From: Escherichia phage vB_EcoD-Elw
Length of the DNA: 64,000 nucleotides
Sequence record: OR621298
Strand: one strand, 5' to 3'
This document shows, in pieces, positions 38,722 to 63,864 of this stretch. The notes beneath the pieces are model-generated. The model saw only the letters and a program-made list of their open reading frames with translations. It was not told the DNA's origin and made no database searches. A program made the position numbers and the translations under genes. Numbering within the stretch: position 1 is the stretch's first letter; the number at the start of each line of letters is the position of its first letter.

Positions 38722-38742
38722 TATTAAGGGGAGGAGCCCATT

Positions 38743-39159
38743 ATGAGTAAATATGGTTTTGTAAATAACGGACTTAATCAAAGTATGGGCTCCCAGCAGC
38801 CCATTCCGGGTCTGGATAACCCCTACTTACAACAATTGCAACAGCGTTTAGCAGAAGCGCAACAGATGCAGCAACAACTCCAGCAAAACCCTGGAAGTGT
38901 GAGTCCTATGCAAATGATGCAGCAAATGAGCGGGCAGTCGCAAATGCCTCAACAAATGCAGCAACAGGTGCCGCAGCAGCAAGCTCAGCAGCAAACCCAA
39001 CAACCGCAGGTTTCTGCGGAAGGACAGGCAGTACTAGCCCTTTTCGAAGACTTCGCAAAGACAGAGGATGGTAAGCAGCTTGTATCACTTATGGGTAAGT
39101 TTAATAGCTTCTGCCAAAGCCAGGTTGCAAAAGCTCAAAATAGTGGTAATAACTCCTAA
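38743..39159 (+). CDS. Gln-rich low-complexity protein
   Basis: 138-aa ORF; RBS GGGGAGGAG; central QQ/MQ repeats. Confidence 0.5.
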   Translation: MSKYGFVNNGLNQSMGSQQPIPGLDNPYLQQLQQRLAEAQQMQQQLQQNPGSVSPMQMMQQMSGQSQMPQQMQQQVPQQQAQQQTQQPQVSAEGQAVLALFEDFAKTEDGKQLVSLMGKFNSFCQSQVAKAQNSGNNS

Positions 39160-39168
39160 GGAGGAATT

Positions 39169-39363
39169 ATGTGTTGCAGAAAATCTGTTTCGTGCTGCCC
39201 AATGCCTGTAGCACGTTGTTGCTCTCCAGCAATGTTTACGCAAATACCGGCGTTCAATCCGTTTGCCTTTAAGCCTACTCTTATCCTGCCCCCTAGAGTA
39301 GATTTTCAGTCAAGATTGGCCTCCCGTATGGGTGGTTGCTGTAATAAGAGTATATGGTTCTGA
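39169..39363 (+). CDS. Cys/Pro-rich small peptide (64 aa)
   Basis: RBS AGGAGG; paired CC motifs (MCCRK, SCC, RCC, GGCC). Confidence 0.45.
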   Translation: MCCRKSVSCCPMPVARCCSPAMFTQIPAFNPFAFKPTLILPPRVDFQSRLASRMGGCCNKSIWF

Positions 39364-39377
39364 AGAACCAAACAATA

Positions 39378-39413
39378 AAGCCCCTAGTCGAAAGACTTAG
39401 GGGCTTTTCTTTT
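39378..39413 (+). terminator. rho-independent terminator
   Basis: stem AAGCCCCTAG/CTAGGGGCTT followed by TTTTCTTTT. Confidence 0.65.
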
Positions 39414-39420
39414 ATCTTAA

Positions 39421-39460
39421 ATACAGAAAAGCCCTGCGCTCTCCAGGAAACGCAGGGCTT
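39421..39460 (-). terminator. rho-independent terminator (convergent)
   Basis: stem AGCCCTGCG/CGCAGGGCT with U-run in minus sense, downstream of the SPFH gene. Confidence 0.55.
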
Positions 39461-39483
39461 ATTTCAGATGTTACATGCGGGTA

Positions 39484-40431
39484 TTACTTATTACGCATAT
39501 CCATAATCATTTGGCCATCATAGCCAGTGCCAACCACAGTCTGCGGTACACCACCTTGGTATTTCTGAGCACGAATCATTTCAACTTCCAGTTGCTTCCA
39601 GCGAATCATCTCAGGAGTAATGGTACGTTGCAACGCGGCGTTAGCTTCAGCTTCTTTCTTAGCTGCGTACAGTTTGGCATCTGCGTCACGCTCATTGGCA
39701 ATAGCTTGGTTATTACGAGCTTCGCGATCTGCTTCTGCTTGTTTAACCTTCTGCTGTGCTTCTTGTTCAACACGAGCCAGTTCAGCTTTCGCAGCATTAA
39801 CTTGCTCTTCACGAACTTTGGTATTCTGTACCTGTTCCATGATTACCGGTGGCAAAGTAATATCCTGAAGGAATACCTGCTTAACTGTATAACCATATGG
39901 GCGTGCATACTCTTCAACTTCCTGTTGAATTGCAGTTTGCAATTGAGCCTGAATTTTAGCATCAAACAAATCTTGTGCTTTAGGTACAGACTTACCAAAC
40001 TCACGAATAGTAGACAGTAATTTTTCAGTTACATATTTGTCTAGCGCTTGATCCTGAGTACCTGCGTTAATACGGTTAATCGGTGCCTTAGAACCATCAA
40101 ACTGCAACATAACAGTCAGGTCAACAGTGGATTTAAACTTATCCTGACTAGGAACCTGAAGTTTATCTAATTTTAGAGCAATATCTTTAGTACTAAAAGT
40201 ATCGAAAGAAGCAAAAGGATTTACAATATGAAAGCCGGGTAGTACTGGGCTAGGGTCAACTTTACCCAGGAAAGTCTGGGTTTTAACAGTACCGTCTTGA
40301 ACAACGGTATAAGAGTTAAAGGCTAGAATCAAGCCTGCTAAACCAACTATAGCACCAATACCCCAACGTTTAATAGTACGAATTACTTTCTGCTCAGAAG
40401 TCAGTTCTTTCATATTTTTAGTATTAAACAT
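39484..40431 (-). CDS. SPFH/band-7 (prohibitin/HflC-like) membrane protein
   Basis: 315-aa ORF; N-terminal TM, SPFH-like core, C-terminal coiled-coil rich in E/A/Q/K. Confidence 0.6.
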   Translation of the reverse strand: MFNTKNMKELTSEQKVIRTIKRWGIGAIVGLAGLILAFNSYTVVQDGTVKTQTFLGKVDPSPVLPGFHIVNPFASFDTFSTKDIALKLDKLQVPSQDKFKSTVDLTVMLQFDGSKAPINRINAGTQDQALDKYVTEKLLSTIREFGKSVPKAQDLFDAKIQAQLQTAIQQEVEEYARPYGYTVKQVFLQDITLPPVIMEQVQNTKVREEQVNAAKAELARVEQEAQQKVKQAEADREARNNQAIANERDADAKLYAAKKEAEANAALQRTITPEMIRWKQLEVEMIRAQKYQGGVPQTVVGTGYDGQMIMDMRNK

Positions 40432-52937: not shown

Positions 52938-53007
52938 TTGGCTTTCCTTTTTATATTTATCAGGATTTAAGGAATATTCTACTTTATTATTGGTCATTAG
53001 GCAAATA

Positions 53008-53040
53008 AAATTTTCTGATAGAAAAGGCCCGGGTATTTTC
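53008..53040 (-). terminator. rho-independent terminator
   Basis: stem GGGCCTGGGTA/TACCCGGGCC followed by UUUU in minus sense. Confidence 0.55.
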
Positions 53041-53079
53041 ATACCCAGGCCCTGTATATTACCAGTCTAGCTTTTTAGC

Positions 53080-53301
53080 TTATTCAATTACTTTAGCTCT
53101 AGCCACTTCTTTTAATAGAATATCTATGGAGGTGCTCAGCTCGTTATAATTGAATGGTTTATTTGGATTTGAGGTTACAATTTTCCACGCTAGGGTTGTC
53201 TTAGGACTTTCTTCCCCTTCCTTACGTGTAATCATATTGGCAGCACTCAGTGAAGTACGATGTATTTTAGTTTTACGGCTCAGATGAACGACGTTTCCCA
53301 T
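53080..53301 (-). CDS. hypothetical protein
   Basis: Track ORF 53080..53370 trimmed to ATG just after the phoH stop; RBS GGGGAAGG. Confidence 0.4.
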   Translation of the reverse strand: MGNVVHLSRKTKIHRTSLSAANMITRKEGEESPKTTLAWKIVTSNPNKPFNYNELSTSIDILLKEVARAKVIE

Positions 53302-53302
53302 A

Positions 53303-54055
53303 TTACACCTTCCCCATGTCTTTAAAGATGTCATAGAATGCTTTAGACTCAACAGAACGAACGTTATCAATCAATTCAATCATTGAGAATGGGGCATTTT
53401 CGTATTTCTCATAGACTTCCATAAGGAGTGCTAGACCTGAGTCACCTTTAATGTCTTTCTGAGCTATATCTCCGCAGATAATTAAACGGCAGTCTTGCCC
53501 TACACGAGTTAGAAGACAAATCATTGCCTCAACGGAAATATTCTGAGCTTCATCGACAATTACATAGGAGTTGTTGAAAGTTCTGCCACGAGCATGTTCG
53601 ACAGCCAAAAATTTAATTTTCTGACGTTCGACATATCCCTTATAGGCGTGATCGCCGATGGCCCATTTCATACCATCAGCTATTGGCTCTAACCAAGGCT
53701 CTAGCTTTTCCGCTAGATCACCAGGAAGCATACCAAGAGACTTACCTAGAGGTTCATTAGGACGTACGAGAATCACTTGCTCAATATCTGAGTGAATGTC
53801 TACGAGTTCCTGAGCTGCAAGAACGGACGGAATAAAGGTTTTACCAGTACCTGGCTCACCGATACCCACAGTTACTGTGTTGTTCTTGATCATATTGATA
53901 TATGATTTTTGCTCGCGGTTTTTACCTACTAGGGATTTAGCAACTGGGTTAGCGTAATCATTAGAAAAATCAGCCTGAATTACGTTATTCTCATATTTGT
54001 TGCCACGCTTTCTTGAACCATTGCGGTTCTCTCTTTTTTGACGTGCTTTTCCCAT
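53303..54055 (-). CDS. phoH: PhoH-like P-loop ATPase
   Basis: Track ORF (GTG) trimmed to ATG with RBS AGGAG; Walker A GEPGTGKT. Confidence 0.75.
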   Translation of the reverse strand: MGKARQKRENRNGSRKRGNKYENNVIQADFSNDYANPVAKSLVGKNREQKSYINMIKNNTVTVGIGEPGTGKTFIPSVLAAQELVDIHSDIEQVILVRPNEPLGKSLGMLPGDLAEKLEPWLEPIADGMKWAIGDHAYKGYVERQKIKFLAVEHARGRTFNNSYVIVDEAQNISVEAMICLLTRVGQDCRLIICGDIAQKDIKGDSGLALLMEVYEKYENAPFSMIELIDNVRSVESKAFYDIFKDMGKV

Positions 54056-54128
54056 AAATAACACTCCTATAGTGTACTTCGCTAACAGAGGATCAACAAA
54101 AAGATCTTGTTTATCAACTTACAAATAT

Positions 54129-54157
54129 ATTATACCAATATATACAGTAAAAAGCAA
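54129..54157 (-). promoter_or_regulatory. T5-type early promoter
   Basis: -10 TATAAT, -35 TTGCTT, 17-bp spacer upstream of phoH. Confidence 0.55.
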
Positions 54158-54349
54158 CTACAATTTTAAATAAGCCTATGATATTGCATTTAAATAAAAA
54201 ATTTGCTTGCTTTTAACGTGAGATGTGTGATACTAGATAATCATTTTATATCGCGTGCACGAGTGCGTGATTATACAATTTTTAATAGAAATTGGCAAAT
54301 AAAATTTTTTGACTCAGATCATGTTGCAGAACTTTATAGTAAAATATTG

Positions 54350-54378
54350 TTGACATCCGCCCTCGAATGAGTTATAAT
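54350..54378 (+). promoter_or_regulatory. consensus sigma70 promoter (-35 TTGACA, -10 TATAAT) for nrdD
   Basis: Perfect hexamers with 17-bp spacer, ~30 nt upstream of the nrdD start. Confidence 0.65.
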
Positions 54379-54407
54379 AGTAGTCTTAGTTAGAGAAGGA
54401 GAGTGTA

Positions 54408-56282
54408 ATGAATCGTAATGAAGAACTAAAATATAAAGAAATGCAGGCGTTAATTAGAAACTGCAAAGAGATTATCGAAGGGTCAGCGGATGAAGAGCTG
54501 CTGTTTAATAATGCCAATAAACCCTCAGAACGTTTCCCTACACAGAGGGATATGCTTGCAGGTGAATTGAGTAAGTATCTGATTCTAGAAGAAATGCCAA
54601 TTCAGATTCGAAATGCTCATATGATTGGGGATATTCATTTCCATGATGCTGATTATGCTGCATTAGGCATGACTAATTGTTGTCTGGTAGCTCTGGAAGA
54701 TATGTTGAAGAATGGTATGAAGGTTGGTAATGCTGAAATTAGCACTCCAAACTCTATCACTACTGCAGCGGCTATTACTGCTCAGATTATCACTCAAGTT
54801 AGCTCCCATCAGTATGGGGGCACTTCCGTGGATCGCCTTGATGAAGTATTAGCTCCTTATGTTCGTAAATCCTATGACAAAAATCATGCGTTTGCAAAAC
54901 GTTGGACTAAGGATGAAGCCAAAGCATCAGTAATGGCTACGGAGATGACTGAAAAAGAAGTCTATGACGCTTGTCAGGGTTTAGAATATGAAATCAATAC
55001 CATGTTCAACTCTAATGGTCAGAGTCCATTTATTACCTTTGGTTTTGGTCTAGGAACTTCTTGGGAAGCACGTCTAGTACAGAAAGCAATATTGAAAGTA
55101 CGCATGGATGGTTTAGGTATCAATAAACGTACAGCTATCTTCCCGAAACTGGTATTTGTACTTCGTGATGGCGTAAATATGAAACCAGGGGATGTTAGTT
55201 ATGACATCAAGAAGTTAGCTATGAAATGTACTGCTGAACGTATGTATCCAGATTATATCAGCTATGACAAGGTTGTAGAAGTTACTGGAGACTATAAAGT
55301 TTCTATGGGCTGCCGTTCATTCCTAGCTGCTACAGAAGATGGTGAAACTGCTGGTCGTAATAACTTAGGTGTTGTTTCTGTAAACTTGCCTAGAATTGCT
55401 ATCGAAGCTGAAGGAAATATTGATCTATTCTTTGATTTGCTTGAGCTACGTGTGGATACAGCGTTAAAAGCATTGGAGTGGAGAGTTGATCGCTTAAAAT
55501 ACATCCAAGCTAAAGCTGCACCCATCCTCTATATGTCAGGAGCCTTTGGGTTACGCTTGGAGCCTGATGAATATGTATTCGATCATTTCTATAACCGTGC
55601 TTCTGTATCTCTAGGATATATTGGTTGCCATGAAATGCTACAGTTCATGTTTGGCAAAGATGTAGATACAATGTCCGAGACCTGCATCAAGTTTGTTCAG
55701 CGTGTGCTGCAGTACATGCGAGATAGAGTCGATCAGAAGAAGGAGGAGACTAAGTTAGGTTATAGCCTGTATGCTACACCGTCGGAATCCCTATGCGATC
55801 GTTTTTGTCGTCTAGACCGTGAATATTTCCCGGAGCATGAAGATATTCTGTCCAAAGGATACTACACTAACTCTCACCACCTTGATGTGGAACGTAAAGT
55901 TGCTCCCAACGTGAAATTTGATTATGAATCTAACTTTACTCCGATTGCTTCTGGTGGGTGTATTTCCTATGTAGAACTACCGGATATGAAACGATTCCCA
56001 GATGCACTAGAATGGGTTATTAATTATGCTGCTAGTAAAGTTCATTACTTCGGTATTAATACTCCGGTGGATTCTTGTGGTAAATGTGGATTCTTAGGTG
56101 AAACAGTAGCATCCGAAGATGGGTTTAAGTGCCCTATCTGTGGTAATCATGACCCCGAAACTCTTGAAGTAACTCGTCGAGTTTGTGGGTATCTTGGAAA
56201 TCCAGGTGCTCGTCCATTTAACCCAGGCAAACAGCATGAGGTTATGGGCAGAGTGAAACATCAGGATATTCGAGCTAAATAA
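54408..56282 (+). CDS. nrdD: anaerobic ribonucleoside-triphosphate reductase (class III)
   Basis: 624-aa ORF; C-terminal Cys cluster (CGKCG...CPICG) and glycyl-radical motif RVCGYLG; RBS GAAGGAGAG. Confidence 0.85.
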   Translation: MNRNEELKYKEMQALIRNCKEIIEGSADEELLFNNANKPSERFPTQRDMLAGELSKYLILEEMPIQIRNAHMIGDIHFHDADYAALGMTNCCLVALEDMLKNGMKVGNAEISTPNSITTAAAITAQIITQVSSHQYGGTSVDRLDEVLAPYVRKSYDKNHAFAKRWTKDEAKASVMATEMTEKEVYDACQGLEYEINTMFNSNGQSPFITFGFGLGTSWEARLVQKAILKVRMDGLGINKRTAIFPKLVFVLRDGVNMKPGDVSYDIKKLAMKCTAERMYPDYISYDKVVEVTGDYKVSMGCRSFLAATEDGETAGRNNLGVVSVNLPRIAIEAEGNIDLFFDLLELRVDTALKALEWRVDRLKYIQAKAAPILYMSGAFGLRLEPDEYVFDHFYNRASVSLGYIGCHEMLQFMFGKDVDTMSETCIKFVQRVLQYMRDRVDQKKEETKLGYSLYATPSESLCDRFCRLDREYFPEHEDILSKGYYTNSHHLDVERKVAPNVKFDYESNFTPIASGGCISYVELPDMKRFPDALEWVINYAASKVHYFGINTPVDSCGKCGFLGETVASEDGFKCPICGNHDPETLEVTRRVCGYLGNPGARPFNPGKQHEVMGRVKHQDIRAK

Positions 56283-56289
56283 GCTAATC

Positions 56290-56320
56290 AGCCGGGTTGC
56301 TAGTCGACCTGGCTTTTATT
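56290..56320 (+). terminator. rho-independent terminator
   Basis: GC-rich imperfect stem followed by TTTTATTTTATT. Confidence 0.5.
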
Positions 56321-56324
56321 TTAT

Positions 56325-56353
56325 TTGCTTTCAGCCAAAAATTTATATATAAT
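56325..56353 (+). promoter_or_regulatory. T5-type promoter (-35 TTGCTT, -10 TATAAT), PN25-like architecture
   Basis: 17-bp spacer; downstream ATAAATTTGAGAGGAG leader. Confidence 0.65.
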
Positions 56354-56381
56354 AGATTTATAAATTTGAGAGGAGAAAGAT

Positions 56382-56762
56382 ATGGAATTAAAGCACTATA
56401 TAGTTGAATCTACATGTGGTAGTTTCCATCTGGGTGTAGATGATGTTGCTGAGGCTGTCTTTGCTGCCACAGGTGATTACTCGCATATAGAGGGTGTTGG
56501 ATACCCTACCATTATTGGCGATTGGGTGGGAACAAATCTAGATGTATCACCTTATAACCCATATTGCTTGTTTGATGAAGACAGAGATGAAGTAAAATGT
56601 AATCTTGAATTTGTGTATAATAGAGTGTTAAAAGTATACCAACGTAGCCCCAATGGGTACGAAGATATTACTTGGAGTATTAAACAGTATCTTAAAGATG
56701 TGTACTCTAGTTTTTCTGACGAAGACCTAGAAACAGTTGCAGTGGAGTTTAATAATGACTAA
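56382..56762 (+). CDS. hypothetical protein
   Basis: 126-aa ORF; RBS GAGGAGAAAG. Confidence 0.55.
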   Translation: MELKHYIVESTCGSFHLGVDDVAEAVFAATGDYSHIEGVGYPTIIGDWVGTNLDVSPYNPYCLFDEDRDEVKCNLEFVYNRVLKVYQRSPNGYEDITWSIKQYLKDVYSSFSDEDLETVAVEFNND

Positions 56763-56961
56763 GAATGTGAAACACCTTAAATATCGCTTAATTTACAACG
56801 GACGTATGGAAACAGAAGATCTGGCCCAGTTAGCTATTAATTCTAATGAGGTTACGGTGCGTGCGCTGGCAATTGAAAAGTTGCGTGCTTCTTATGAAAA
56901 TCGTGTTATGGAACTAGAGGAGAAACTTTATGGCATTCTCGAAGCCGATGCTACCAGATAA
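56737..56961 (+). CDS. hypothetical protein
   Basis: 74-aa ORF overlapping neighbours. Confidence 0.4.
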   Translation: MQWSLIMTKNVKHLKYRLIYNGRMETEDLAQLAINSNEVTVRALAIEKLRASYENRVMELEEKLYGILEADATR

Positions 56962-57151
56962 GGGTTTAAACTCCGCTTTGGAAAACGCATTAATGCAGCA
57001 CTGGGAAACTGGCTATAAGGATGGTGTTGAATCCTGCGCTACTATGCTAGAAGTTATTGCTAATACCTTAATGGAGAAAGGCAATAAAGAATTAGCTGAG
57101 CTATTAGACAGTATTGGGCAAAACTTCAGAGAACAGGTGAAAAATGCGTAG
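56930..57151 (+). CDS. hypothetical protein
   Basis: 73-aa ORF. Confidence 0.4.
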   Translation: MAFSKPMLPDKGLNSALENALMQHWETGYKDGVESCATMLEVIANTLMEKGNKELAELLDSIGQNFREQVKNA

Positions 57152-57968
57152 ATTAATTATTATTAGCGGTGCAGGTTTGAGTGTTGAAAGTGGTGTACGA
57201 GCTTTTCGTACTGATACTGCTAGTGGTAAAGCACTGTGGGATGATTATGATCTAGAAGAAGTATGTAATATTCATGCCTTTCGTGGTAATTTTTATCATA
57301 AAACCCATATGTTTTACAACAAGCGTCGTGAAGAGCTAAAAACTGTTGAACCTAACCTTGCGCATCTTCGTATTGGTGAGTGGTATAAACAATACCCAGG
57401 TCAAGTAGTAAACTTGACTACCAATGTTGATGACCTTATTGAACGTGCTGGCGTTCCACATAGTGACATTCTGCACATTCACGGATATTTAAAAGAGGTT
57501 GTTGTAGCTGACAGCTACAATAGTAGTAATAAACGAATTATTGATGTTGGGTATAACTCTATTGACCCAGATGATTATAAATGGGTTAAACCTAATGTAA
57601 TCTTCTTTGGTGAGCATGCTCCAGCATATACAGAAATGTACAATGTTTTTGATGGTATTACCAGTCAAGATATGATCATTGTGGTTGGTTGCTCTAACCA
57701 AGTAATTAACTTCTACTGGGAATTATTTCCTGTTCTTAATTTGACTGCTGCCAAATTAATGGTAGTTAACTACTATGATAGTGCCCTAGCGACAGAGCCG
57801 GGCTACCAAGGTATGACTCGTAGTGAGATGTACCAGCTGGAAGAACGCGGTATCCCTTACTGGAGTAAAGGGGCTGTAGATGCCTTCAGTGACCCTGATT
57901 TTATTGCTCGTGTAGAAGCTCATCTAGAGGGTAGACCTTATATGCCGGGGAAACAAATATGTCCATAA
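57144..57968 (+). CDS. Sir2-family NAD-dependent deacylase/ADP-ribosyltransferase-like protein
   Basis: 274-aa ORF; N-terminal GAGLSVESGVRAFR matches the Sir2 NAD-binding motif. Confidence 0.6.
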   Translation: MRRLIIISGAGLSVESGVRAFRTDTASGKALWDDYDLEEVCNIHAFRGNFYHKTHMFYNKRREELKTVEPNLAHLRIGEWYKQYPGQVVNLTTNVDDLIERAGVPHSDILHIHGYLKEVVVADSYNSSNKRIIDVGYNSIDPDDYKWVKPNVIFFGEHAPAYTEMYNVFDGITSQDMIIVVGCSNQVINFYWELFPVLNLTAAKLMVVNYYDSALATEPGYQGMTRSEMYQLEERGIPYWSKGAVDAFSDPDFIARVEAHLEGRPYMPGKQICP

Positions 57969-58141
57969 TTAAATCTGTGTATACACACCCTGATGATATA
58001 TTTGTATGGGCGGACGGTAGTTGGTGTTATCGCTGTGAGTTGTGGGAAATGGACTATAAATCCGATGACTATGGTGTTATATATGTGGATACGGTTGAGT
58101 ATGATACGTTCTTAGAAAGGAACAAAAATGGAAATAAGTAA
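57959..58141 (+). CDS. hypothetical protein
   Basis: 60-aa ORF. Confidence 0.35.
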   Translation: MSIIKSVYTHPDDIFVWADGSWCYRCELWEMDYKSDDYGVIYVDTVEYDTFLERNKNGNK

Positions 58142-58634
58142 TACTCCAATTATTTTTCTAGACATTGATGGGGTGCTCAATTCGAGCATCTCCCACCATC
58201 ATGCACCTGATGATGAAAAGATTTTCTTTGGAAGTGACTGGGTTTTCAAACCACTTCTCAAGGCTTTTCAGGACTTTATTCGTCCTTCTCCGATAATGAT
58301 TGTTGGAGTATCCTCATGGTTCTCTGTCAGGAATGAGATGGAGAACGTTCAGATTATGACCGGATTAGGTCTTATCGATCGTTTTCTTGGTACAACGGAT
58401 TTTACCGGGGGTGGATTATCTAGGGGTAATTCTGTTCTTCGCTTCGTTGAAAAGCATAAGCTCAAACATTGGTGTGTGCTGGATGATGCCGGTGCTATGA
58501 TGTATCAGTATCCAACGGTTATAGTCAATGGTAGAACAGGAATAAATCTTCAGGATTTAAAAGCTGTTAGCTATATGCTAGAATTTAGCCCAGATCTTGA
58601 AATGTGTAAATCCTTACAACAATTTAAGGTGTAA
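58128..58634 (+). CDS. HAD-superfamily hydrolase-like protein
   Basis: 168-aa ORF; motif I FLDIDGVLN at N-terminus. Confidence 0.5.
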   Translation: MEISNTPIIFLDIDGVLNSSISHHHAPDDEKIFFGSDWVFKPLLKAFQDFIRPSPIMIVGVSSWFSVRNEMENVQIMTGLGLIDRFLGTTDFTGGGLSRGNSVLRFVEKHKLKHWCVLDDAGAMMYQYPTVIVNGRTGINLQDLKAVSYMLEFSPDLEMCKSLQQFKV

Positions 58635-58636
58635 AT

Positions 58637-59065
58637 ATGTTCAATAATGTATTCTCTAAAGAAGCTAACCCAATTTTGGTTAACTTTTGGCGTACTCTCC
58701 CGGCTAGCCTGTATAATGAGGCTATTAACTCCTTGAAAATATGGTGTGAGAATAACGAAATCTCCTTTGCTTTTAAAGATGATATTGATGAGGCCCCCTG
58801 TATTGGTCTAGTTGTGCAGGTAGAGGAGGGTCTTGAAGAGATTGTGGGCTGGAAAGAGTTAGACGAAATGGGCTTAGTTTTTGCGTTAAATTATAAGCTG
58901 TTTATGCCTGCTAAGCATCGCCTAGTTGTTAACTATAAAACTAGTGAATCTCCTGGTTTTCAGGTTAATGAACGTTATGGTTGGTCTTACTCACCGGAAG
59001 AAGTAAATGATGGTATCCAAAAACTTCGTCGTTTTGGTTATCAAATTCCGGGTTTAACCGCCTAA
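58637..59065 (+). CDS. hypothetical protein (paralog of next gene)
   Basis: 142-aa ORF; shares PCIG, MGL..ALN and GYQIPGL-type motifs with 59075..59467. Confidence 0.5.
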   Translation: MFNNVFSKEANPILVNFWRTLPASLYNEAINSLKIWCENNEISFAFKDDIDEAPCIGLVVQVEEGLEEIVGWKELDEMGLVFALNYKLFMPAKHRLVVNYKTSESPGFQVNERYGWSYSPEEVNDGIQKLRRFGYQIPGLTA

Positions 59066-59074
59066 GGGGGCATA

Positions 59075-59467
59075 ATGGAACAAGTATATTGGCGTCAGAT
59101 TGATCCTAGTTTGGTGAAGCGTGCGGAGAAGCTGCTACAACGTTGGTTGGTGGTAAGACAAGTCTCCTTCACTTTTCCGGAGCAGCAAACGGATGATCCA
59201 TGCATTGGCGTTTTCCTGTCTGGATATGCCGGGGAATGGGAATTGGATTGGAATGAATTGTCTGCTATGGGCTTGATTGTTGCCCTAAACTTCTCTATAT
59301 TCCATCCACGTGGTTTGGCCATATGTCGTGTGCCTGATGACGGTTGTTCGCCCCATCTTTTACAGGTGGAAGATGATATTTGGGAGTACACTCCAGATAT
59401 TCTCGCAGAAGCTAAAGAACAATTAAATCGTGTTGGGATTTATGTTCCGGGCTTAAATGATGGATGA
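59075..59467 (+). CDS. hypothetical protein (paralog of previous gene)
   Basis: 130-aa ORF; RBS AAGGGGG. Confidence 0.5.
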   Translation: MEQVYWRQIDPSLVKRAEKLLQRWLVVRQVSFTFPEQQTDDPCIGVFLSGYAGEWELDWNELSAMGLIVALNFSIFHPRGLAICRVPDDGCSPHLLQVEDDIWEYTPDILAEAKEQLNRVGIYVPGLNDG

Positions 59468-59489
59468 TTTTTATTAGCTAAACTCTGAT

Positions 59490-59516
59490 TACCGAGTCAT
59501 TTTGGCTCGGTTTTAT
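59490..59516 (+). terminator. rho-independent terminator
   Basis: stem ACCGAG/CTCGGT followed by TTTTA. Confidence 0.5.
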
Positions 59517-59558
59517 CCGTACTTAAGACCAATGATAGCACCATCCGGAAAATTTTAC

Positions 59559-59587
59559 TTGCATGATGCCCAAAATCTTGATATAAT
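59559..59587 (+). promoter_or_regulatory. sigma70-type promoter (-35 TTGCAT, -10 TATAAT)
   Basis: 17-bp spacer; ~500 nt non-coding leader before the 929-aa gene. Confidence 0.5.
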
Positions 59588-60084
59588 ATTTATATTGAAT
59601 TGAGAGACATTAGTAAAAATTGATTTTGCTAATTTTTCTTGTTTACAATCCGCGATACGGAACAGTTAGGCTGCCCCATTAAGGGTTGTTTTAACTATTA
59701 CTAGTGTTTATATTGCATTAGTTAATCTTCAATTAAGTGATCTGTGTACCCTGAATTCGGAAAGGTAAATCCAAACCGTGCATATTTAGCTCGTTATATA
59801 GGCAGAGTTTTATATGGGGGTGCGAACGAAAAGAGCAGCGAATGGCGGCACGTACAGTAGTCACCTACCAATAGGATAGTGAGGACAAATAGAATCGGCT
59901 TAGCGGCCAATGACCTAGGTTCTATTCTGTATATGAGCGAAGAGAGCACAGCACTGAGATATGATAACTTATTCATATTGCTTGATGATAATTAATGTTT
60001 ACGTAAATAGTAGTAATAGTTGTTCTATTCTTTCTGAATAGTCCTAAAGAAAAGATTTCGATTAACCAACACAGGAGTATTGTT

Positions 60085-62874
60085 GTGTTTTCTATTCTCC
60101 AAGGTCACGCCGGATTTTCTCGTGATTTAGCAACAGGTATTTGGCGAGAAATCAAAGCGGAAGATTATACCTTTGCCAAGCGATTCTCGAAAAAGCATCC
60201 AGAAGGTAAACCAGCTTCTATGCCCTTCAAATTTGATGTAATAGAAGAGCATGACCCGCAAAGCCTTGCCGAAATGTTACCACTTATGAGACGTTTAACG
60301 TCTGACCCTCATATCGTTGCGGTACGAGGTCGATGTCTTGCACCTAAAAATAACGTGCGACGTAAGAAAGGTAACTTTAATGTATCTAATCCTAGTAATA
60401 TTATTGCTATGGACGTGGATGGTATCCTAGATACCGGTGGGTATGACAAGTTTAACCTTGTTGGTATGGCCCGCCACATTATTAAGATGTTGAATAGTAT
60501 TAGTGAGGACATGTTCCCTCTTGATGCAGGCTTTATAGCTCATGCATCGTCTTCGGCTGGGCTTAAACCAGGTATCCGAATGCACTTAATGCTAGAATCT
60601 AACGTCAAGGTAACTCAGGGTCAGTTAAAGTTCTTATTTACATCTATCAACGATAGTAGTAAGCAAAAATTTGGTTTTGATATTGCCGACTTAGCTTATT
60701 ATTCATCTGTCCAGCTCCACTATTTTGCCGACCCCTTATTTAGTGATGGTATTGTTGATCCGTTTAAAGCGGAGAGTAAGCCACGTCTGGTGTATGTTAA
60801 AGGTTCGAAAGTAAATTTGCCCAATAATCTGGTTGACTATGAAACAACTAGAGGGGAGTTTAAGGAAGAGTTTTATTCTTTACTTGATCAAATTAAAGGC
60901 AAAAAGATCGCGTCTGATAAAGTAGAAGAAACCATCAGCGAATTGGAAGAAGCTGAGGATGGGGTGTACCTGCGTATTATCCCCAAACTATACCATAGAG
61001 CATTAGAGGATGGTGTTGATTTTGCATGGCTAGAACGTGAGATTAAACCCGCTTTATCTGAATATATTGCAACTAAAGATAACAGTCGTAATATTCAAGA
61101 TTACTTTAATAACGGTCGTAAGCAGGCTCTCAAAGCGTTTGTTAATAATTCTAAACGTGAGATTCCATTAAATCTGAAAGGTGTTCCGCTCAAGAAGTTA
61201 GAAGTGGATTCTCCACCAGAAGTTCCGTACCTGAAGATTAACATTGTGCCTCCAAAAGGCCATATAACATTTGTTAAGGCAAGTCTTGGTACTGGTAAAA
61301 CTACGGCAGTAACTAAATGGCTGGACGCAGGTGTTCTTCCTGGCAACTTTTTAGCAGTTACAAATACTAGAGCACTGGTATCTTCAAACGCTAAGAAATT
61401 TAGCGCAGGACAATATGATAAGTCTGTAGATATGCTCAACTTTAAACGTGGAGCTATTGATCGTATGTCCACAACTATTCACTCTTTGCATAAGTTCAAA
61501 AGTTTTATTGGTCAAATAGATACCATTTTTATTGATGAATGTGATGCTGTAATGAATGATCTATTATTCGCACCTGTTGTTAAGCAACGTCGCGAATGTA
61601 TTCAAGTTCTACGTGACATCCTCATGACAGCTAAAACTGTAATTCTATCAGATGGTGATATTAGTGCCGAAACTATTGAAGCATATGGTTCTCTAATTGA
61701 TTTTGATAAACCAGTAGCATTTTATAATCATCACCGTAAGATGCTGTCAAAAGCTCATGCTTATGAGTTCCCGGATGAGTCCAGTATTTGGGTTGCACTT
61801 CAGACTTCTCTAGAGATGGGTGAGAAATCTATCCTAGTATCTGATTGTGGGCCGGATGAACTGAATGAGAAGGGCATGGCGTTGCGTCGTAATACGGGTG
61901 CATTAGTTAAGGAAATCCACTCAAACTCTACGTCTGATGTAGATATTAGACGTATTCTGGATTACACAACTAATGAGCTAATTGACCAACAAATTGATTG
62001 CTTATTATGTAGTCCATCTGTAACGAGTGGTGTTGACTTTAACTATTTTGATAACGTATTCGTTATCACTAGAACTAGCAACCAAGCGCCAAACATGCGT
62101 TTCCAAGCAATCAGGCGCGACCGTGGTGCTCAGAATATCTATTATTTTATTGATAAATCCACTAGTGGGTTCTCCGCAGGTTCTGAACAATATAATATTG
62201 ATGAAGGTTGGCTGGAGTTAGCACAGCAATTATACGCACGTCGCAGAGAACTAGAATCTAGGAACTATACTAGTACTTTACGTTATTACTTGCTTGATCA
62301 GGGTGCAACTATTGATATTTTCAGCGAAAGCTGGGGAACTATTGAAGGTGCTGGTAAAGAATACACAGAAGAGCGAATCAAAGCTATCCTACATTCAACT
62401 CCGGATTACTGTGCACCACGTCATGCGGATGCGTATGAGGCTAAACTACTTCTTGTTCGCTATTATCATCTTGAGTCTATTAAAGATGTAACAGTTGAGC
62501 ATGTTGAACAATATATCAAAGATAAACCGAATGATCGAGCTGCATTCTTCCATAAGATGCACGAGATGTTCTGGGAAGATATTAAGAAGTGTTCAAATGT
62601 GACCATTAAACCATTCATAGAGGCTCTGAAAGGTAAGAAGAAAGACTTCTTCCTTAAAACAGGTCAGAGTGCTAACCCAAAATATGCTAGAATGTATCTT
62701 GGTATGATGGGTATTGGTAAGGATATGAACACTGAAAATATTGTAGACTGGTACAGAACCTATTGTAAAATCGAGTGTATGCCAATCCCATATAAGTTTA
62801 TGACTGATGAGGAGAAACATATGCATGATGAAGCAATGGCAGAGCTAGGTGCTAGAAATGACAGTGAAGAATAA
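60085..62874 (+). CDS. large P-loop NTPase, helicase-like (possible replication-associated protein)
   Basis: 929-aa ORF, GTG start after RBS CAGGAG; Walker A ASLGTGKTTAV and DExD-like FIDECDAV. Confidence 0.55.
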   Translation: MFSILQGHAGFSRDLATGIWREIKAEDYTFAKRFSKKHPEGKPASMPFKFDVIEEHDPQSLAEMLPLMRRLTSDPHIVAVRGRCLAPKNNVRRKKGNFNVSNPSNIIAMDVDGILDTGGYDKFNLVGMARHIIKMLNSISEDMFPLDAGFIAHASSSAGLKPGIRMHLMLESNVKVTQGQLKFLFTSINDSSKQKFGFDIADLAYYSSVQLHYFADPLFSDGIVDPFKAESKPRLVYVKGSKVNLPNNLVDYETTRGEFKEEFYSLLDQIKGKKIASDKVEETISELEEAEDGVYLRIIPKLYHRALEDGVDFAWLEREIKPALSEYIATKDNSRNIQDYFNNGRKQALKAFVNNSKREIPLNLKGVPLKKLEVDSPPEVPYLKINIVPPKGHITFVKASLGTGKTTAVTKWLDAGVLPGNFLAVTNTRALVSSNAKKFSAGQYDKSVDMLNFKRGAIDRMSTTIHSLHKFKSFIGQIDTIFIDECDAVMNDLLFAPVVKQRRECIQVLRDILMTAKTVILSDGDISAETIEAYGSLIDFDKPVAFYNHHRKMLSKAHAYEFPDESSIWVALQTSLEMGEKSILVSDCGPDELNEKGMALRRNTGALVKEIHSNSTSDVDIRRILDYTTNELIDQQIDCLLCSPSVTSGVDFNYFDNVFVITRTSNQAPNMRFQAIRRDRGAQNIYYFIDKSTSGFSAGSEQYNIDEGWLELAQQLYARRRELESRNYTSTLRYYLLDQGATIDIFSESWGTIEGAGKEYTEERIKAILHSTPDYCAPRHADAYEAKLLLVRYYHLESIKDVTVEHVEQYIKDKPNDRAAFFHKMHEMFWEDIKKCSNVTIKPFIEALKGKKKDFFLKTGQSANPKYARMYLGMMGIGKDMNTENIVDWYRTYCKIECMPIPYKFMTDEEKHMHDEAMAELGARNDSEE

Positions 62875-63091: not shown

Positions 63092-63099
63092 AAATTTAT

Positions 63100-63128
63100 T
63101 TGCTTTCAGGAAAAATTTTCTGTATAAT
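63100..63128 (+). promoter_or_regulatory. PN25-type strong T5 promoter
   Basis: aaaatttatttgctttcaggaaaaattttctgtataatagattcataaatttgagagaggag is near-identical to the published T5 PN25 sequence as I recall it. Confidence 0.8.
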
Positions 63129-63159
63129 AGATTCATAAATTTGAGAGAGGAGTTTAAAT

Positions 63160-63864
63160 ATGGCCGGTTCTCGCAGAAAGAAACATATCCATGAAATCCC
63201 GGATGAAGTCTTTAAAAAAGTTATAGAGCATCTGGAGAACGGTGGTACTAAGAAAGCAGCTTGTGAGATGCTCGGCGTATCATCCAATCCAACTATGGAA
63301 AGGATGATTGAAGAGTGGCAAGACCGCCAGATTCAAGTTGCCGAAATGAAGAAAAAGAAACGTGGCACACTCATTGAAGGTATTGAGTTGGCCAACGTTA
63401 TTGAACAGTATTTATCTGGTGATTCTTTTGAAGAGATTGCCGATCGTAATTATCGCTCTGTAGCAATGGTTAAATCTGTTCTGGAACGCTATGGTGCTCT
63501 GCTTCGTTTGAACGATATTGTAGACCCGTTGAATCCTCCTATTATTCCTGATGATGCTGTAGCAGAAGAATTTGAAGTTGGTGAGCTTGTTTGGGTTCCT
63601 GGATACCAGTGTATCGGTGAAATCAAAAAAGCAATGGATAATCCTGTTGGTTGCTACCGTGTATGGCTTCTATCGGAAGGCAAACAACAGAACGTTCATT
63701 ATATGAATTATGAGCTGGCTTCTGTTAAACACCTGGAAAAGTTAGGAGTTGATGTAAAATCTCTGGGGTATAAATGGACTCGGGAAGAAGTCATTACGTT
63801 GATTAACGAAGCTGTTAAGGCCGCCTTGAAACTTGATAAAGAAAAAGGAAAACGCCGTGAGTAG
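63160..63864 (+). CDS. hypothetical protein transcribed from the PN25-type promoter
   Basis: 234-aa ORF; RBS GAGAGGAG 8 nt upstream of ATG. Confidence 0.6.
   Translation: MAGSRRKKHIHEIPDEVFKKVIEHLENGGTKKAACEMLGVSSNPTMERMIEEWQDRQIQVAEMKKKKRGTLIEGIELANVIEQYLSGDSFEEIADRNYRSVAMVKSVLERYGALLRLNDIVDPLNPPIIPDDAVAEEFEVGELVWVPGYQCIGEIKKAMDNPVGCYRVWLLSEGKQQNVHYMNYELASVKHLEKLGVDVKSLGYKWTREEVITLINEAVKAALKLDKEKGKRRE

What the first reader, a model, noticed from the sequence alone, without database searches (positions are those of the whole stretch)
54408..59467. Plus-strand module: nrdD without nrdG, followed by a Sir2-like gene, a HAD-like gene and tandem paralogs
nrdD has its own consensus sigma70 promoter and terminator, but no radical-SAM activase motif is present in the window, so the enzyme presumably depends on host NrdG. 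Downstream, from a PN25-type promoter, come a Sir2-family protein (GAGLSVESGVRAFR), a HAD-like protein (FLDIDGVLN) and two paralogous ~135-aa proteins. Sir2 and HAD domains are common in NAD+-manipulating defence and counter-defence systems, so this operon may act on host NAD+/ADP-ribose metabolism.
Basis: partly seen in the sequence, partly recalled or inferred. Interest (0 to 1): 0.45.

Follow-up and report, generated by a model that had tools for sequence, protein, structure and literature searches.

The report
T5-phage nrdD and Sir2–HAD early operon
This is the already catalogued early-gene block of a T5-like phage: an anaerobic ribonucleotide reductase that has to borrow the host's activating enzyme, followed by a dispensable operon holding a sirtuin, a phosphatase and two duplicated proteins whose functions nobody has tested.

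Summary
The window is a T5-like phage (96% nucleotide identity to phage EC148), and 54408-59467 is the ortholog of T5 genes T5.099-T5.107.

- **nrdD:** it has the only perfect TTGACA-N17-TATAAT in the window and its own terminator. No NrdG-like gene occurs in the window, in the rest of EC148, or in T5 1-72 kb.
- **Promoter:** a near-copy of T5 promoter PN25 drives eight overlapping genes.
- **Sirtuin:** it is CobB-like. The NAD-binding and catalytic residues and the class III YxxR motif are intact. All zinc cysteines are lost. It matches no defence-type model.
- **HAD:** it is the "Swiss Army Knife" RNA-repair type, and all four HAD motifs are conserved.
- **Paralogs:** each consists of two DUF7415 repeats. 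The predicted fold has no solved relative.

All of this has been described before. T5 was annotated in 2005, nrdD-only phages were reported in 2013, and the sirtuin-HAD neighbourhood in T5-like phage SP15 was described in 2022 with a proposed NAD+-dependent RNA-end repair role.

The genes are dispensable: phage DT57C has deleted the sirtuin and HAD, and Klebsiella T5-like phages lack the HAD. The idea that the operon manipulates the NAD+ pool has no specific support. Interest is low.

The parts
54350..54378 (+). nrdD promoter, TTGACA-17 nt-TATAAT
   Evidence: 12/12 consensus match. It is the only perfect match in the window, where 0.02 are expected by chance. T5 annotates a promoter at the orthologous place.
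54408..56282 (+). nrdD: class III (anaerobic) ribonucleotide reductase catalytic subunit, without an ATP-cone (T5.099 ortholog)
   Evidence: Pfam NRDD and Gly_radical. NCBIfam PRK09263 gives 842 bits against a 657 cut-off, matching profile positions 87-706 of 712. It is 54% identical to E. coli NrdD residues 110-705. The RVCGYLG glycyl motif and the CGKCG...CPICG zinc site are read directly from the translation.
56290..56314 (+). intrinsic terminator after nrdD
   Evidence: 10-bp stem with 6 G-C pairs, followed by TTTTATTTTAT. T5 annotates a terminator at the orthologous place.
56320..56370 (+). PN25-type early promoter and leader (-35 TTGCTT at 56325-56330, -10 TATAAT at 56348-56353)
   Evidence: Sequence read. 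It aligns with the window's PN25 ortholog and with the annotated T5 PN25, and the columns are invariant from TTTATTTGCTTTCAG through TATAATAGATT.ATAAATTTGAG. The pattern occurs exactly twice in the window.
56382..56762 (+). T5.100-like 126-aa protein, function unknown
   Evidence: phrog_11748, unknown function. No Pfam, NCBIfam or PADLOC hit. Homologs were found only in T5-like phages. The AF2 model has pLDDT 63 and is unusable.
56755..56961 (+). T5.101-like 68-aa protein, function unknown (the ATG at 56755 is inside the TTG-started ORF 56737-56961)
   Evidence: ORF list. phrog_5236. Gene call transferred from CitS1 and EC148.
56930..57151 (+). 73-aa protein, function unknown
   Evidence: ORF list. 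phrog_5827. Annotated in CitS1.
57144..57968 (+). phage-clade sirtuin (T5.102 ortholog), CobB-like class III type without zinc cysteines
   Evidence: PF02146, E 6.9e-25. Best solved relative is E. coli CobB 1s5p, E 1.4e-17. Invariant GAG, S16, F21-R22, F57-Y58-N59, R62, T92, N94, H111, H113-G114 and FGE across 8 phage sirtuins plus CobB; no Cys4 in any phage member. Below every CobB equivalog cut-off. No PADLOC hit.
57959..58141 (+). T5.104-like 60-aa protein, function unknown
   Evidence: phrog_5116. T5 annotation.
58128..58634 (+). HAD-superfamily phosphatase of the 'Swiss Army Knife' RNA-repair type (T5.105 ortholog)
   Evidence: PF18143 HAD_SAK_2, E 4e-20, 73 bits against a 27.5 cut-off. 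Invariant D12, D14 (motif I DxDGV), S62/S63, R99/R105 and D119-D120 in five phage homologs.
58637..59065 (+). DUF7415 tandem-repeat protein, paralog A (T5.106 ortholog)
   Evidence: PF24187, E 1.1e-35, two stretches. 31% identical to paralog B.
59075..59467 (+). DUF7415 tandem-repeat protein, paralog B (T5.107 ortholog)
59491..59511 (+). hairpin ending the operon (terminator-like, weak T tract)
   Evidence: RNA fold of 59466-59525 gives -13.2 kcal/mol, z -2.9. T5 annotates a terminator at the orthologous place. The consensus scan did not call it.

Best explanation
The region is the early-gene block T5.099-T5.107 of a T5-like phage. It consists of two transcription units.

Unit 1 is monocistronic nrdD. 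It encodes an ATP-cone-less class III ribonucleotide reductase that supplies dNTPs when the enterobacterial host is anaerobic. The phage encodes no radical-SAM activase, so the glycyl radical has to be installed by the host's NrdG (inferred).

Unit 2 is an eight-gene operon of overlapping reading frames. It starts at a PN25-type early promoter and ends at a hairpin near 59500. Its products are accessory and dispensable for plaque formation.

My preferred mechanism for the sirtuin plus HAD pair is the one proposed by Iyer et al. 2022. In it, the sirtuin uses NAD+ to remove a 2'-phosphate from a nuclease-cleaved RNA end, in the manner of KptA/Tpt1, releasing nicotinamide and ADP-ribose 1'',2''-cyclic phosphate. 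The SAK-type HAD phosphatase then removes terminal phosphates. This would help the phage restore tRNAs or other RNAs cut by host anticodon nucleases.

The DUF7415 pair and the four small proteins are probably host-takeover or binding proteins of unknown target.

How likely each step is:
- Gene identities and operon architecture: at least 0.95 (shown).
- Dependence on host NrdG: about 0.8 (inferred).
- RNA-end processing role of sirtuin plus HAD: about 0.35 (inferred from gene neighbourhoods only).
For: Identity and architecture:
- 96% nucleotide identity to T5-like phages across the whole region.
- One-to-one correspondence with the T5 annotation, including its promoters and terminators.
- Domain assignments from Pfam, PHROG and NCBIfam.
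- Promoter and terminator evidence.

Dependence on host NrdG:
- No activase in the window or in relatives' genomes.
- NrdD is of the E. coli type, with a near-identical radical-domain C-terminus.
- The window also encodes a GrcA-like glycyl-radical protein at 27310-27678(-), which likewise has no phage activase.
- nrdD-only phages are documented.

RNA-end repair:
- The HAD belongs to HAD_SAK_2 and keeps all catalytic motifs.
- The sirtuin keeps its NAD+-binding and catalytic residues.
- Its 57-61% identical orthologs in rV5-like phages lie in an operon RNA_lig_T4_1 - cREC_REC - Sir2 - pyrophosphohydrolase.
- In the jumbo phage BF the sirtuin lies between a gene annotated 'RNA ligase' and a Nudix gene.
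- The T5-like phage SP15 neighbourhood is explicitly described and interpreted this way in PMC9503650 section 3.7.3.

Dispensability:
- Phage DT57C carries a deletion that fuses the sirtuin N-terminus to the HAD C-terminus.
- Klebsiella T5-like phages lack the HAD.
Against: - No RNA ligase, 2H or polynucleotide-kinase gene is annotated anywhere in T5 1-72 kb or in EC148 61-107.7 kb. A complete heal-and-seal pathway would therefore need host enzymes.
- The sirtuin's closest characterised relatives are protein deacylases (CobB, SIRT5), and it keeps their YxxR acyl-carboxylate motif.
- Sirtuin-HAD linkage is confined to Demerecviridae. The HAD occurs without a sirtuin in T4-like phages, in one case between td and nrdA.1/denA, which is a nucleotide-metabolism setting. 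The sirtuin occurs without the HAD in Sugarlandvirus-like, rV5-like and jumbo phages.
- The sirtuin allele has been exchanged independently of the HAD. Against Epseptimavirus it is about 52% identical, while the HAD is about 90% identical.
- No biochemical data exist for any of these proteins (literature searches).
- Cross-activation of a phage NrdD by host NrdG is not guaranteed. As I recall it, T4 needs its own NrdG; I did not check this here.
Confidence: 0.5

Rival explanations
1. The sirtuin is an ordinary NAD+-dependent protein deacylase, a phage version of CobB. It removes acetyl or succinyl groups from host or phage proteins early in infection to retune metabolism or gene expression. 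The HAD is an unrelated neighbour, for example a nucleotide phosphatase working with the surrounding dNTP-metabolism genes.
For: - The best matches are CobB and SIRT5, that is, class III sirtuins.
- GAGxS, the catalytic His and the class III YxxR motif are conserved across the phage clade.
- The same idea was proposed for the KVP40-like phage sirtuin, which also lacks zinc (PMC5107563).
- The HAD homolog in an Aeromonas T4-like phage sits between td and nrdA.1/denA.
- In T5-like phages the whole block lies among nrdA, nrdB, thy, frd, phoH and nrdD.
- The HAD and the sirtuin occur independently of each other in several lineages.
Against: - The sirtuin scores far below every CobB equivalog cut-off (100 bits against 243).
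- The Cys4 zinc module, which is a structural hallmark of protein-deacylating sirtuins, is lost in every member of the clade.
- The recurring neighbours of close orthologs are RNA-processing genes: Rnl1-type ligase, cREC, a gene annotated 'RNA ligase' that Iyer et al. class as 2H, and Nudix.
- The HAD's own family assignment is to RNA-repair proteins.
Confidence: 0.3
2. The sirtuin and HAD act on the NAD+ pool or on NAD+-derived small molecules such as ADP-ribose derivatives and immune signals. In this reading they form a counter-defence or host-takeover module.
For: - NAD+ is a known battleground for T5-like phages. They use an NAD+-dependent DNA ligase. Epseptimavirus relatives carry the NARP3 NAD+-rebuilding pair (PMC13464706).
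- In the jumbo phage BF the orthologous sirtuin lies next to Nampt and a cytidylyltransferase-type gene.
- The sirtuin is catalytically intact.
- The operon is early and dispensable, as accessory and anti-defence genes usually are.
Against: - There is no similarity to defence-type SIR2 NADases or to any PADLOC model.
- None of the nine ORFs has a Macro, Nudix, ART, Nampt, NMNAT or NadR/PnuC domain, and a motif scan found no NadR/PnuC signature elsewhere in the window.
- A phage that depends on an NAD+-dependent ligase gains nothing obvious from depleting NAD+.
- No anti-defence phenotype has been reported.
Confidence: 0.12
3. The DUF7415 proteins are functionally tied to the anaerobic reductase, for example as adaptors that let host NrdG activate the phage NrdD. 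In that case the grouping of nrdD with the operon would be functional rather than positional.
For: - A single-repeat DUF7415 gene lies exactly between nrdD and nrdG, overlapping both, in Klebsiella T4-like phages of the genus Jiaodavirus.
- In the Demerecviridae loci examined that have a sirtuin (T5, S116, My1, vB_Kpn13-P2), one or two DUF7415 genes sit in the same block downstream of nrdD.
Against: - Elsewhere DUF7415 genes sit in unrelated contexts. One is next to NudE in Pseudotevenvirus-like phages. Another is in the early region of a P2-like prophage, between a TraR-like gene and Dam/gpA, with no nrdD nearby.
- In T5-like phages a terminator and seven or eight genes separate them from nrdD.
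- The fold gives no functional hint.
Confidence: 0.03

Closest known systems
Bacteriophage T5 genes T5.099-T5.107 (NC_005859; Wang et al. 2005 annotation)
   Same: Gene order, promoters, terminators and products correspond one to one. Many T5-like records share 95-96% nucleotide identity with the region.
   Different: The window lacks the small gene T5.103. Its sirtuin C-terminus differs by a few residues, and its nrdD is called 624 aa against 574 aa in T5, a difference in start choice. None of these is a functional difference.
Phage sirtuin-centred predicted RNA-repair systems (Iyer, Burroughs, Anantharaman, Aravind 2022, PMC9503650, type 3 'SP15-like')
   Same: It is the same neighbourhood, a sirtuin plus a SAK-like HAD in a T5-like phage. 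It is also the same sirtuin clade as in the rV5-like phages (type 2) and the jumbo phages (type 1).
   Different: This is a computational prediction only. T5-like phages have no RNA ligase, cREC, 2H or Nudix partner. The HAD is missing in Klebsiella T5-like phages.
E. coli CobB / human SIRT5 (class III sirtuins)
   Same: Rossmann NAD+ site GAGxSxxSGxxxFR, catalytic His in HxHG, FGE, and the YxxR motif.
   Different: All four zinc cysteines are absent. TQNID reads TTNVD. The score is below the CobB equivalog cut-offs. There is a C-terminal extension of about 60 residues.
T4 NrdD/NrdG and E. coli NrdD/NrdG (class III RNR)
   Same: The catalytic subunit has the glycyl radical motif, the zinc ribbon and the active-site cysteines. 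Like T4 NrdD, it has no ATP-cone.
   Different: There is no phage-encoded activase, whereas T4-like phages carry nrdG next to nrdD. The sequence is nearer the E. coli type (PRK09263, above cut-off) than PRK14704, a shorter 618-position NrdD model on which it scores 349 bits, below cut-off. By phmmer it scores 593 bits against T4 NrdD itself.
KptA/Tpt1 RNA 2'-phosphotransferase
   Same: The proposed chemistry is analogous: an oxygen nucleophile attacks C1'' of NAD+, then the ribose 2''-OH attacks it, giving a cyclic ADP-ribose product. This is established knowledge of both enzyme families, and the analogy is drawn.
   Different: The fold is unrelated (ART versus Rossmann sirtuin). No activity has been shown for the phage protein.
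T5 promoter PN25 (the promoter of pQE expression vectors)
   Same: Near-identical sequence from the -35 region through the leader.
   Different: It is a second copy. The true PN25 lies upstream of the D2 gene, at window 63095-63145.

Membership tests
Class III ribonucleotide reductase (NrdD/NrdG) | NrdD catalytic-subunit profile above the curated cut-off | tested here: met
   Pfam NRDD E 1.9e-171. NCBIfam PRK09263 842 bits against 657, and TIGR02487 587 bits against 326.
Class III ribonucleotide reductase (NrdD/NrdG) | C-terminal glycyl-radical motif (RVCGY) preceded by a four-cysteine zinc site | tested here: met
   The translation reads ...DSCGKCGF...FKCPICGNHD...TRRVCGYLGNPGARPF. Pfam Gly_radical E 7.5e-23. 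It aligns with E. coli NrdD residues 644-705.
Class III ribonucleotide reductase (NrdD/NrdG) | Active-site cysteine-containing segments conserved (TNCCL, MGCRSFL) | tested here: met
   Alignment to 9d3x and to E. coli NrdD.
Class III ribonucleotide reductase (NrdD/NrdG) | Cognate radical-SAM activase NrdG encoded by the same genome | tested here: not met
   No CxxxCxxC radical-SAM ORF and no tblastn hit at E<=1 with E. coli or phage NrdG, in the window, in EC148 61-107.7 kb or in T5 1-72 kb. Positive controls gave E 2e-44. The enzyme is still a class III reductase. The activase must come from the host.
Class III ribonucleotide reductase (NrdD/NrdG) | N-terminal ATP-cone (present in E. coli NrdD, not universal) | tested here: not met
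   The match starts at profile position 87 of 712 and at E. coli residue 110. No PF03477 hit.
Sirtuin (Sir2, PF02146) | Family profile above the gathering score, and the NAD+-binding motif GAGxSxxSGxxxFR | tested here: met
   88.5 bits against 24. GAGLSVESGVRAFR is invariant in its key positions across the clade.
Sirtuin (Sir2, PF02146) | Catalytic histidine (HG) and the Asn/Asp of the TQNID motif | tested here: met
   H113-G114 and N94 are invariant, and D96 is kept in the window protein. The Gln is replaced by Thr or Ala in the phage clade.
Sirtuin (Sir2, PF02146) | Cys4 zinc-binding module in the small domain | tested here: not met
   No cysteine appears in the corresponding segment in any of 8 phage-clade sequences, whereas CobB has them. 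The same was noted for KVP40-like phage sirtuins.
Class III sirtuins (CobB/SIRT5) | YxxR acyl-carboxylate recognition motif | tested here: met
   FYNKRR aligns with CobB FYNARR. Y58 is invariant, and R61 is present in 8 of 9 sequences.
CobB equivalog (NCBIfam) | Score above the curated equivalog cut-off | tested here: not met
   Best score is 100 bits against a cut-off of 243 (NF001753), then 90 against 320 (NF040867).
Sirtuin (any class) | NAD+-dependent deacylase or ADP-ribosyl-transfer activity | not testable with these tools
   This needs an enzyme assay. No published assay was found.
Defence-associated SIR2 NADases (DSR, ThsA, Sir2-HerA, pAgo-associated) | Match to a defence-system SIR2 model | tested here: not met
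   No PADLOC family at E<=0.01 for any of the eight operon proteins. The only Pfam hit is PF02146, not SIR2_2.
Phage sirtuin RNA-repair systems (Iyer et al. 2022) | Membership of the phage sirtuin clade shared with rV5-like and jumbo phages | tested here: met
   57-61% identity to the rV5-like sirtuins and 38-42% to those of Vibrio phages and Serratia phage BF. The shared clade features are the absence of zinc cysteines and T[TA]N in place of TQN.
Phage sirtuin RNA-repair systems (Iyer et al. 2022) | Conserved neighbourhood with an RNA-end-processing enzyme | tested here: met
   A HAD_SAK_2 gene lies one small gene downstream in the window, T5, Epseptimavirus and My1. It is absent in Klebsiella T5-like phages.
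Phage sirtuin RNA-repair systems (Iyer et al. 2022) | An RNA ligase available in the same genome to seal healed ends | tested here: not met
   None is annotated in T5 1-72 kb or in EC148 61-107.7 kb. The rV5-like phage has RNA_lig_T4_1 beside the sirtuin.
HAD-superfamily phosphatase (HAD_SAK_2, PF18143) | Family profile, motif I DxDx(T/V), motif II S/T, motif III K/R, motif IV DD | tested here: met
   73 bits against 27.5. D12, D14, S62/S63, R99/R105 and D119-D120 are invariant in five phage homologs.
DUF7415 (PF24187) | Family profile above the gathering score | tested here: met
   122 and 108 bits against 27, with two stretches in each protein. Single-repeat homologs align to the C-terminal half.
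Phage NAD+ reconstitution pathways (NARP1/2/3) | Nampt/NMNAT, Adps/Namat or NadR-like/PnuC-like gene pair | tested here: not met
   No such domain in the nine ORFs. No HxGH nucleotidyltransferase motif and no polytopic membrane ORF of 120 aa or more in the window; this is a motif-level check only.

The most novel reading that the evidence does not exclude
The zinc-less phage sirtuin clade may not be a protein deacylase at all. It may instead be a nucleic-acid enzyme, an NAD+-dependent RNA 2'-phosphotransferase that arose independently of KptA/Tpt1. In T5-like phages it would work with the SAK-type HAD phosphatase and with host ligases to undo damage by anticodon nucleases. That would be the first sirtuin shown to act on RNA. 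The idea has been in the literature since 2022, so confirming it would be a test of an existing proposal rather than a new discovery.
Probability: 0.25. Interest if true: 0.65.

Novelty: already known. Interest (0 to 1): 0.2.

Why it matters
As a genome feature it changes little. The block is present and annotated in hundreds of T5-like phage genomes, and each of its unusual points has already been noted in print.

What remains open is the biochemistry.
- Can a host NrdG really activate a foreign NrdD?
- What does the widespread zinc-less phage sirtuin clade act on: protein acyl-lysine, RNA 2'-phosphate, or something else?

T5 is genetically tractable and natural deletion variants such as DT57C exist, so this locus is a convenient place to test the 2022 prediction.

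There is also a practical annotation point. The HAD gene is widely mislabelled 'Sir2' in GenBank and PHROG records.

Tried and rejected
Repeated the search with authentic E. coli and KP179 NrdG taken from fetched loci. Nothing was found either time.
- Tested whether the 262-aa gene upstream of the HAD homolog in Proteus phage Pm5461 is a hidden sirtuin. It has no Pfam hit and no BLASTP similarity. Sirtuin-HAD linkage therefore does not extend to T4-like phages.
- Followed the lead that DUF7415 is tied to nrdD/nrdG, which came from the Jiaodavirus arrangement. Contexts elsewhere are unrelated, so the link is probably positional.
- Looked for a hidden RNA-repair domain in the first operon gene (T5.100-like). 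Homologs occur only in T5-like phages and the AF2 model has pLDDT 63. I did not run a fold search on it.
- Compared the T5.034 phosphoesterase with the phosphoesterase beside the rV5-like sirtuin. The similarity is only at superfamily level (24% identity, E 0.04).
- Ran Rfam on 53000-60300 at E<=0.1. There were no hits.
- Looked for NARP3-like genes in the window by motif. None were found.
- Searched the literature for experimental work on a T5 or other phage sirtuin, and on DUF7415. None was found.

Full report
**What the window is.** A megablast of 54300-59600 finds 456 phage records. The best cover 100% of the query at about 96% identity, and all are T5-like phages of the family Demerecviridae: EC148, CitS1, T5_ev212 and others. 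The curated T5 record (NC_005859) shows the same layout gene for gene:
- phoH on the minus strand;
- then promoter, nrdD (T5.099) and terminator;
- then promoter, T5.100, T5.101, Sir2 (T5.102), T5.103, T5.104, T5.105, T5.106 and T5.107, followed by a terminator;
- then a further promoter, a long leader, and the D1 'replication origin binding'/helicase gene.

The finding is therefore the T5.099-T5.107 block of a Tequintavirus-type phage.

**Checking the observation.**
- nrdD (54408-56282, 624 aa) hits Pfam NRDD and Gly_radical and scores above the NCBIfam cut-off for the E. coli-type NrdD equivalog.
- Its promoter at 54350-54378 is a perfect TTGACA-17-TATAAT. It is the only one in the 64 kb, where 0.02 are expected by chance. 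A 10-bp hairpin followed by a T tract lies at 56290-56314.
- The stretch 56320-56370 carries -35 TTGCTT, a 17-nt spacer and -10 TATAAT. It is almost identical to the window's ortholog of T5 promoter PN25 at 63095-63145, which lies upstream of the D2 gene as in T5. 'PN25-type' is the right description. It is a second copy, not PN25 itself.
- The sirtuin, HAD and paralog calls are confirmed by Pfam. The two paralogs are 31% identical (E 1e-20).

All are conserved PHROGs of unknown function. From 56382 to 59467 successive genes overlap by 8-32 nt or are separated by 2-9 nt, and a hairpin at 59491-59511 ends the unit. This is one early operon of eight genes.

**nrdD without nrdG.**
- A six-frame scan for the radical-SAM CxxxCxxC motif finds only three zinc-finger-like stretches in minus-strand ORFs around 27-31 kb, unrelated to activases.
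- tblastn with the authentic E. coli NrdG and the NrdG of T4-like phage KP179 gives nothing at E<=1 in the window, in the rest of the EC148 genome (61.0-107.7 kb), or in T5 1-72 kb. The two queries find each other at E 2e-44, which serves as the positive control.
- The phage NrdD is 54% identical to E. coli NrdD over E. coli residues 110-705, so it lacks the ATP-cone. Around the radical glycine the sequences are nearly the same: VTRRVCGYLGNPGARPFNPGKQ in the phage against VTRRVCGYLGSPDARPFNAGKQ in E. coli.
- Dwivedi et al. 2013 already reported that many phages carry nrdD with nrdAB but without nrdG, and they mention the T5/EPS7/SPC35 arrangement with phoH between the reductase genes.
- The window also encodes a GrcA/YfiD-like 'spare part' glycyl-radical protein at 27310-27678(-). 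It is 95% identical to T5.056 and hits Pfam Gly_radical at E 3.7e-18. It too has no phage activase.

Reliance on host radical-SAM activases therefore looks like the general strategy of these phages. That remains an inference. Cross-activation has not been shown, and from memory it does not work between E. coli NrdG and T4 NrdD.

**The sirtuin.**
- The best solved relative is E. coli CobB (1s5p, E 1.4e-17), followed by archaeal Sir2 and human SIRT5.
- In an alignment of eight phage sirtuins with CobB, these positions are invariant: GAG, S16, G17, F21-R22, F57-Y58-N59, R62, T92, N94, H111, H113-G114, F155-G156-E157. The eight are from the window, T5, Epseptimavirus S116, My1, rV5-like JES2013, phage arall (Stephanstirmvirinae), a Vibrio schizoT4-like phage, and jumbo phage BF.
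- The NAD+ site, the catalytic histidine and the class III Y-x-x-R motif are all kept.
- All four zinc cysteines are missing in every phage member. The Gln of TQNID is replaced by Thr or Ala.
- The protein scores well below all CobB equivalog cut-offs.
- It matches no PADLOC defence model.

So it is a catalytically competent, divergent, phage-specific sirtuin clade. It is not a defence-type NADase.

**The HAD.** It belongs to PF18143, 'HAD domain in Swiss Army Knife RNA repair proteins' (E 4e-20). Across homologs from Tequintavirus, Epseptimavirus, My1, Proteus phage Pm5461 and Aeromonas phage AsFcp_2, all four HAD motifs are invariant:
- motif I: LDxDGVLN;
- motif II: SSW;
- motif III: an Arg after TGGG;
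- motif IV: DD.

Many records label this gene 'Sir2'. That is an annotation artefact. PHROG 18062 ('Sir2') matches only the HAD C-terminus. It appears to derive from phage DT57C, where a natural deletion fuses the sirtuin N-terminus to the HAD C-terminus to give a 90-aa 'defective Sir2'.

**Comparative context.**
- The block nrdD - small ORFs - Sir2 - (HAD) - DUF7415 is conserved across Demerecviridae, but it is modular:
  - My1 has Sir2, HAD and one DUF7415 gene.
  - A Klebsiella T5-like phage has Sir2 followed directly by two DUF7415 genes and no HAD.
  - DT57C has lost Sir2, the small ORFs and the HAD, but keeps both DUF7415 genes.
- The sirtuin allele has been exchanged independently of its neighbours. 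It is about 52% identical between this phage and Epseptimavirus, where the HAD is about 90% identical. It is 57-61% identical to the sirtuin of rV5-like myoviruses.
- In those rV5-like phages the sirtuin lies in an operon with a T4 Rnl1-type RNA ligase, a cREC 'cyclic-phosphate processing' domain and a pyrophosphohydrolase.
- In jumbo phage BF it lies between a gene annotated 'RNA ligase' and a Nudix gene, next to Nampt and a cytidylyltransferase gene.
- The HAD occurs without a sirtuin in T4-like phages. In one case it sits between td and nrdA.1/denA/rnlA.

**What is already published.** Iyer, Burroughs, Anantharaman and Aravind (2022) describe exactly these three neighbourhood types. [quoted passage not shown] They propose that this sirtuin clade removes RNA 2'-phosphates in a KptA-like, NAD+-dependent reaction during repair of RNAs cut by metal-independent nucleases. 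An earlier paper on Vibrio phages proposed a CobB-like deacetylase role, and noted both the missing zinc site and the T5 homolog. I found no experimental work on any phage sirtuin of this clade, and no paper mentioning DUF7415.

**Weighing the mechanisms.**

For RNA-end repair:
- the HAD's family assignment;
- the repeated association of close sirtuin orthologs with RNA ligase, cREC and Nudix genes and a gene annotated 'RNA ligase' that Iyer et al. class as 2H;
- the chemical parallel between the sirtuin and Tpt1 reactions.

Against RNA-end repair:
- T5-like phages have no RNA ligase of their own.
- Sirtuin-HAD linkage is restricted to one lineage and is breakable.
- The sirtuin keeps the YxxR motif typical of desuccinylases.
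- The HAD's other contexts are nucleotide-metabolism clusters.

I rate RNA-end processing at about 0.35 and a protein deacylase with an unrelated HAD at about 0.3. For that last idea, the only support is general. NAD+ matters to these phages: they have an NAD+-dependent ligase, and relatives carry NARP3.

**DUF7415 paralogs.**
- Each protein contains two copies of a roughly 53-aa unit. Single-unit homologs of 72-90 aa align to the C-terminal half.
- With a 79-sequence alignment AF2 gives a confident model (pLDDT 95.9).
- One context is striking. In Klebsiella Jiaodaviruses the single-unit gene sits between nrdD and nrdG and overlaps both.
- Other contexts do not involve nrdD: next to NudE in Pseudotevenvirus-like phages, and in the early region of a P2-like prophage.
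- I therefore treat the link with nrdD as positional (probability of a functional link about 0.03).

The function is unknown. Small, early, duplicated, phage-only proteins of this kind are most often host-protein binders.

**Verdict.** The NAD+-manipulation reading is at best loosely supported. A more specific hypothesis for the same genes has already been published. The locus is an ordinary, well-conserved and previously annotated part of T5-like genomes, so I rate it 'already known' with low interest. What remains of value is the chance to test the untested biochemistry of the phage sirtuin clade in a tractable phage.

Noticed in passing
window 27310-27678 (-): A GrcA/YfiD-like autonomous glycyl-radical protein with motif RVSGY. 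It is 95% identical to T5.056, which T5 annotates as 'acetyltransferase-related'. This is a second glycyl-radical protein in a phage that encodes no radical-SAM activase.
   Followed up: partly
L008:3495-3713 (Klebsiella phage KP179 gp172): A single-repeat DUF7415 gene sits between nrdD and nrdG and overlaps both in Jiaodavirus T4-like phages. This accounts for many of the 324 Klebsiella-phage records hit. Other DUF7415 contexts are unrelated to nrdD.
   Followed up: partly
L007:3854-4126 (phage DT57C) and window 58128-58634: DT57C carries a natural deletion that fuses the sirtuin N-terminus to the HAD C-terminus. PHROG 18062, labelled 'Sir2', matches only the HAD C-terminal half. The HAD gene (T5.105 and its orthologs) is therefore widely mislabelled 'Sir2 NAD-dependent deacetylase' in RefSeq and GenBank records.
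   Followed up: yes
window 57144-57968 compared with L014:3501-4352 and L010:5001-5762: The sirtuin allele is mosaic. By tblastn it is about 52% identical to that of the sister genus Epseptimavirus, which carries a roughly 26-residue insertion, but 57-61% identical to rV5-like myovirus sirtuins. The adjacent HAD is about 90% identical between the two T5-like genera. This suggests the sirtuin gene alone has been replaced by recombination.
   Followed up: partly
window 57950-58150: The window, like EC148, lacks the small gene T5.103 that T5, CitS1 and many others carry between the sirtuin and T5.104. This is an indel of about 150 bp, and it explains the two-piece alignments.
   Followed up: partly
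window 63095-63145 and 63160-63864: This is the true ortholog of T5 promoter PN25, the promoter used in pQE expression vectors. It lies upstream of the D2-like gene and is identical to my recollection of the published PN25 core.
   Followed up: yes
window 59468-60084: A 617-bp non-coding stretch lies between the operon's terminator and the D1 helicase/'origin binding' gene. It holds a promoter-like site around 59556-59590, a 10-nt unit GTTCTATTCT repeated three times, and an 18-nt inverted repeat whose arms are 293 nt apart. There is no Rfam match.
   Followed up: partly
window 54270-54298 (-) and 54350-54378 (+): Back-to-back near-consensus promoters (11/12 and 12/12) lie in the 340-bp phoH-nrdD divergent intergenic region. 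T5 annotates two minus-strand promoters and one plus-strand promoter there.
   Followed up: no
whole window (motif scan): Epseptimavirus relatives such as Bas30/TrudiRoth carry the experimentally shown NAD+-rebuilding pair NARP3 (NadR-like plus PnuC-like; PMC13464706). A motif-level scan found no HxGH nucleotidyltransferase and no polytopic membrane ORF in this window, so this phage probably lacks it.
   Followed up: partly
window 39484-40431 (-), with GC 0.458 over 38001-40000: An SPFH/Band-7 domain protein (T5.080 'lipoprotein' ortholog) lies in the most GC-rich 2-kb bin of the window.
   Followed up: no
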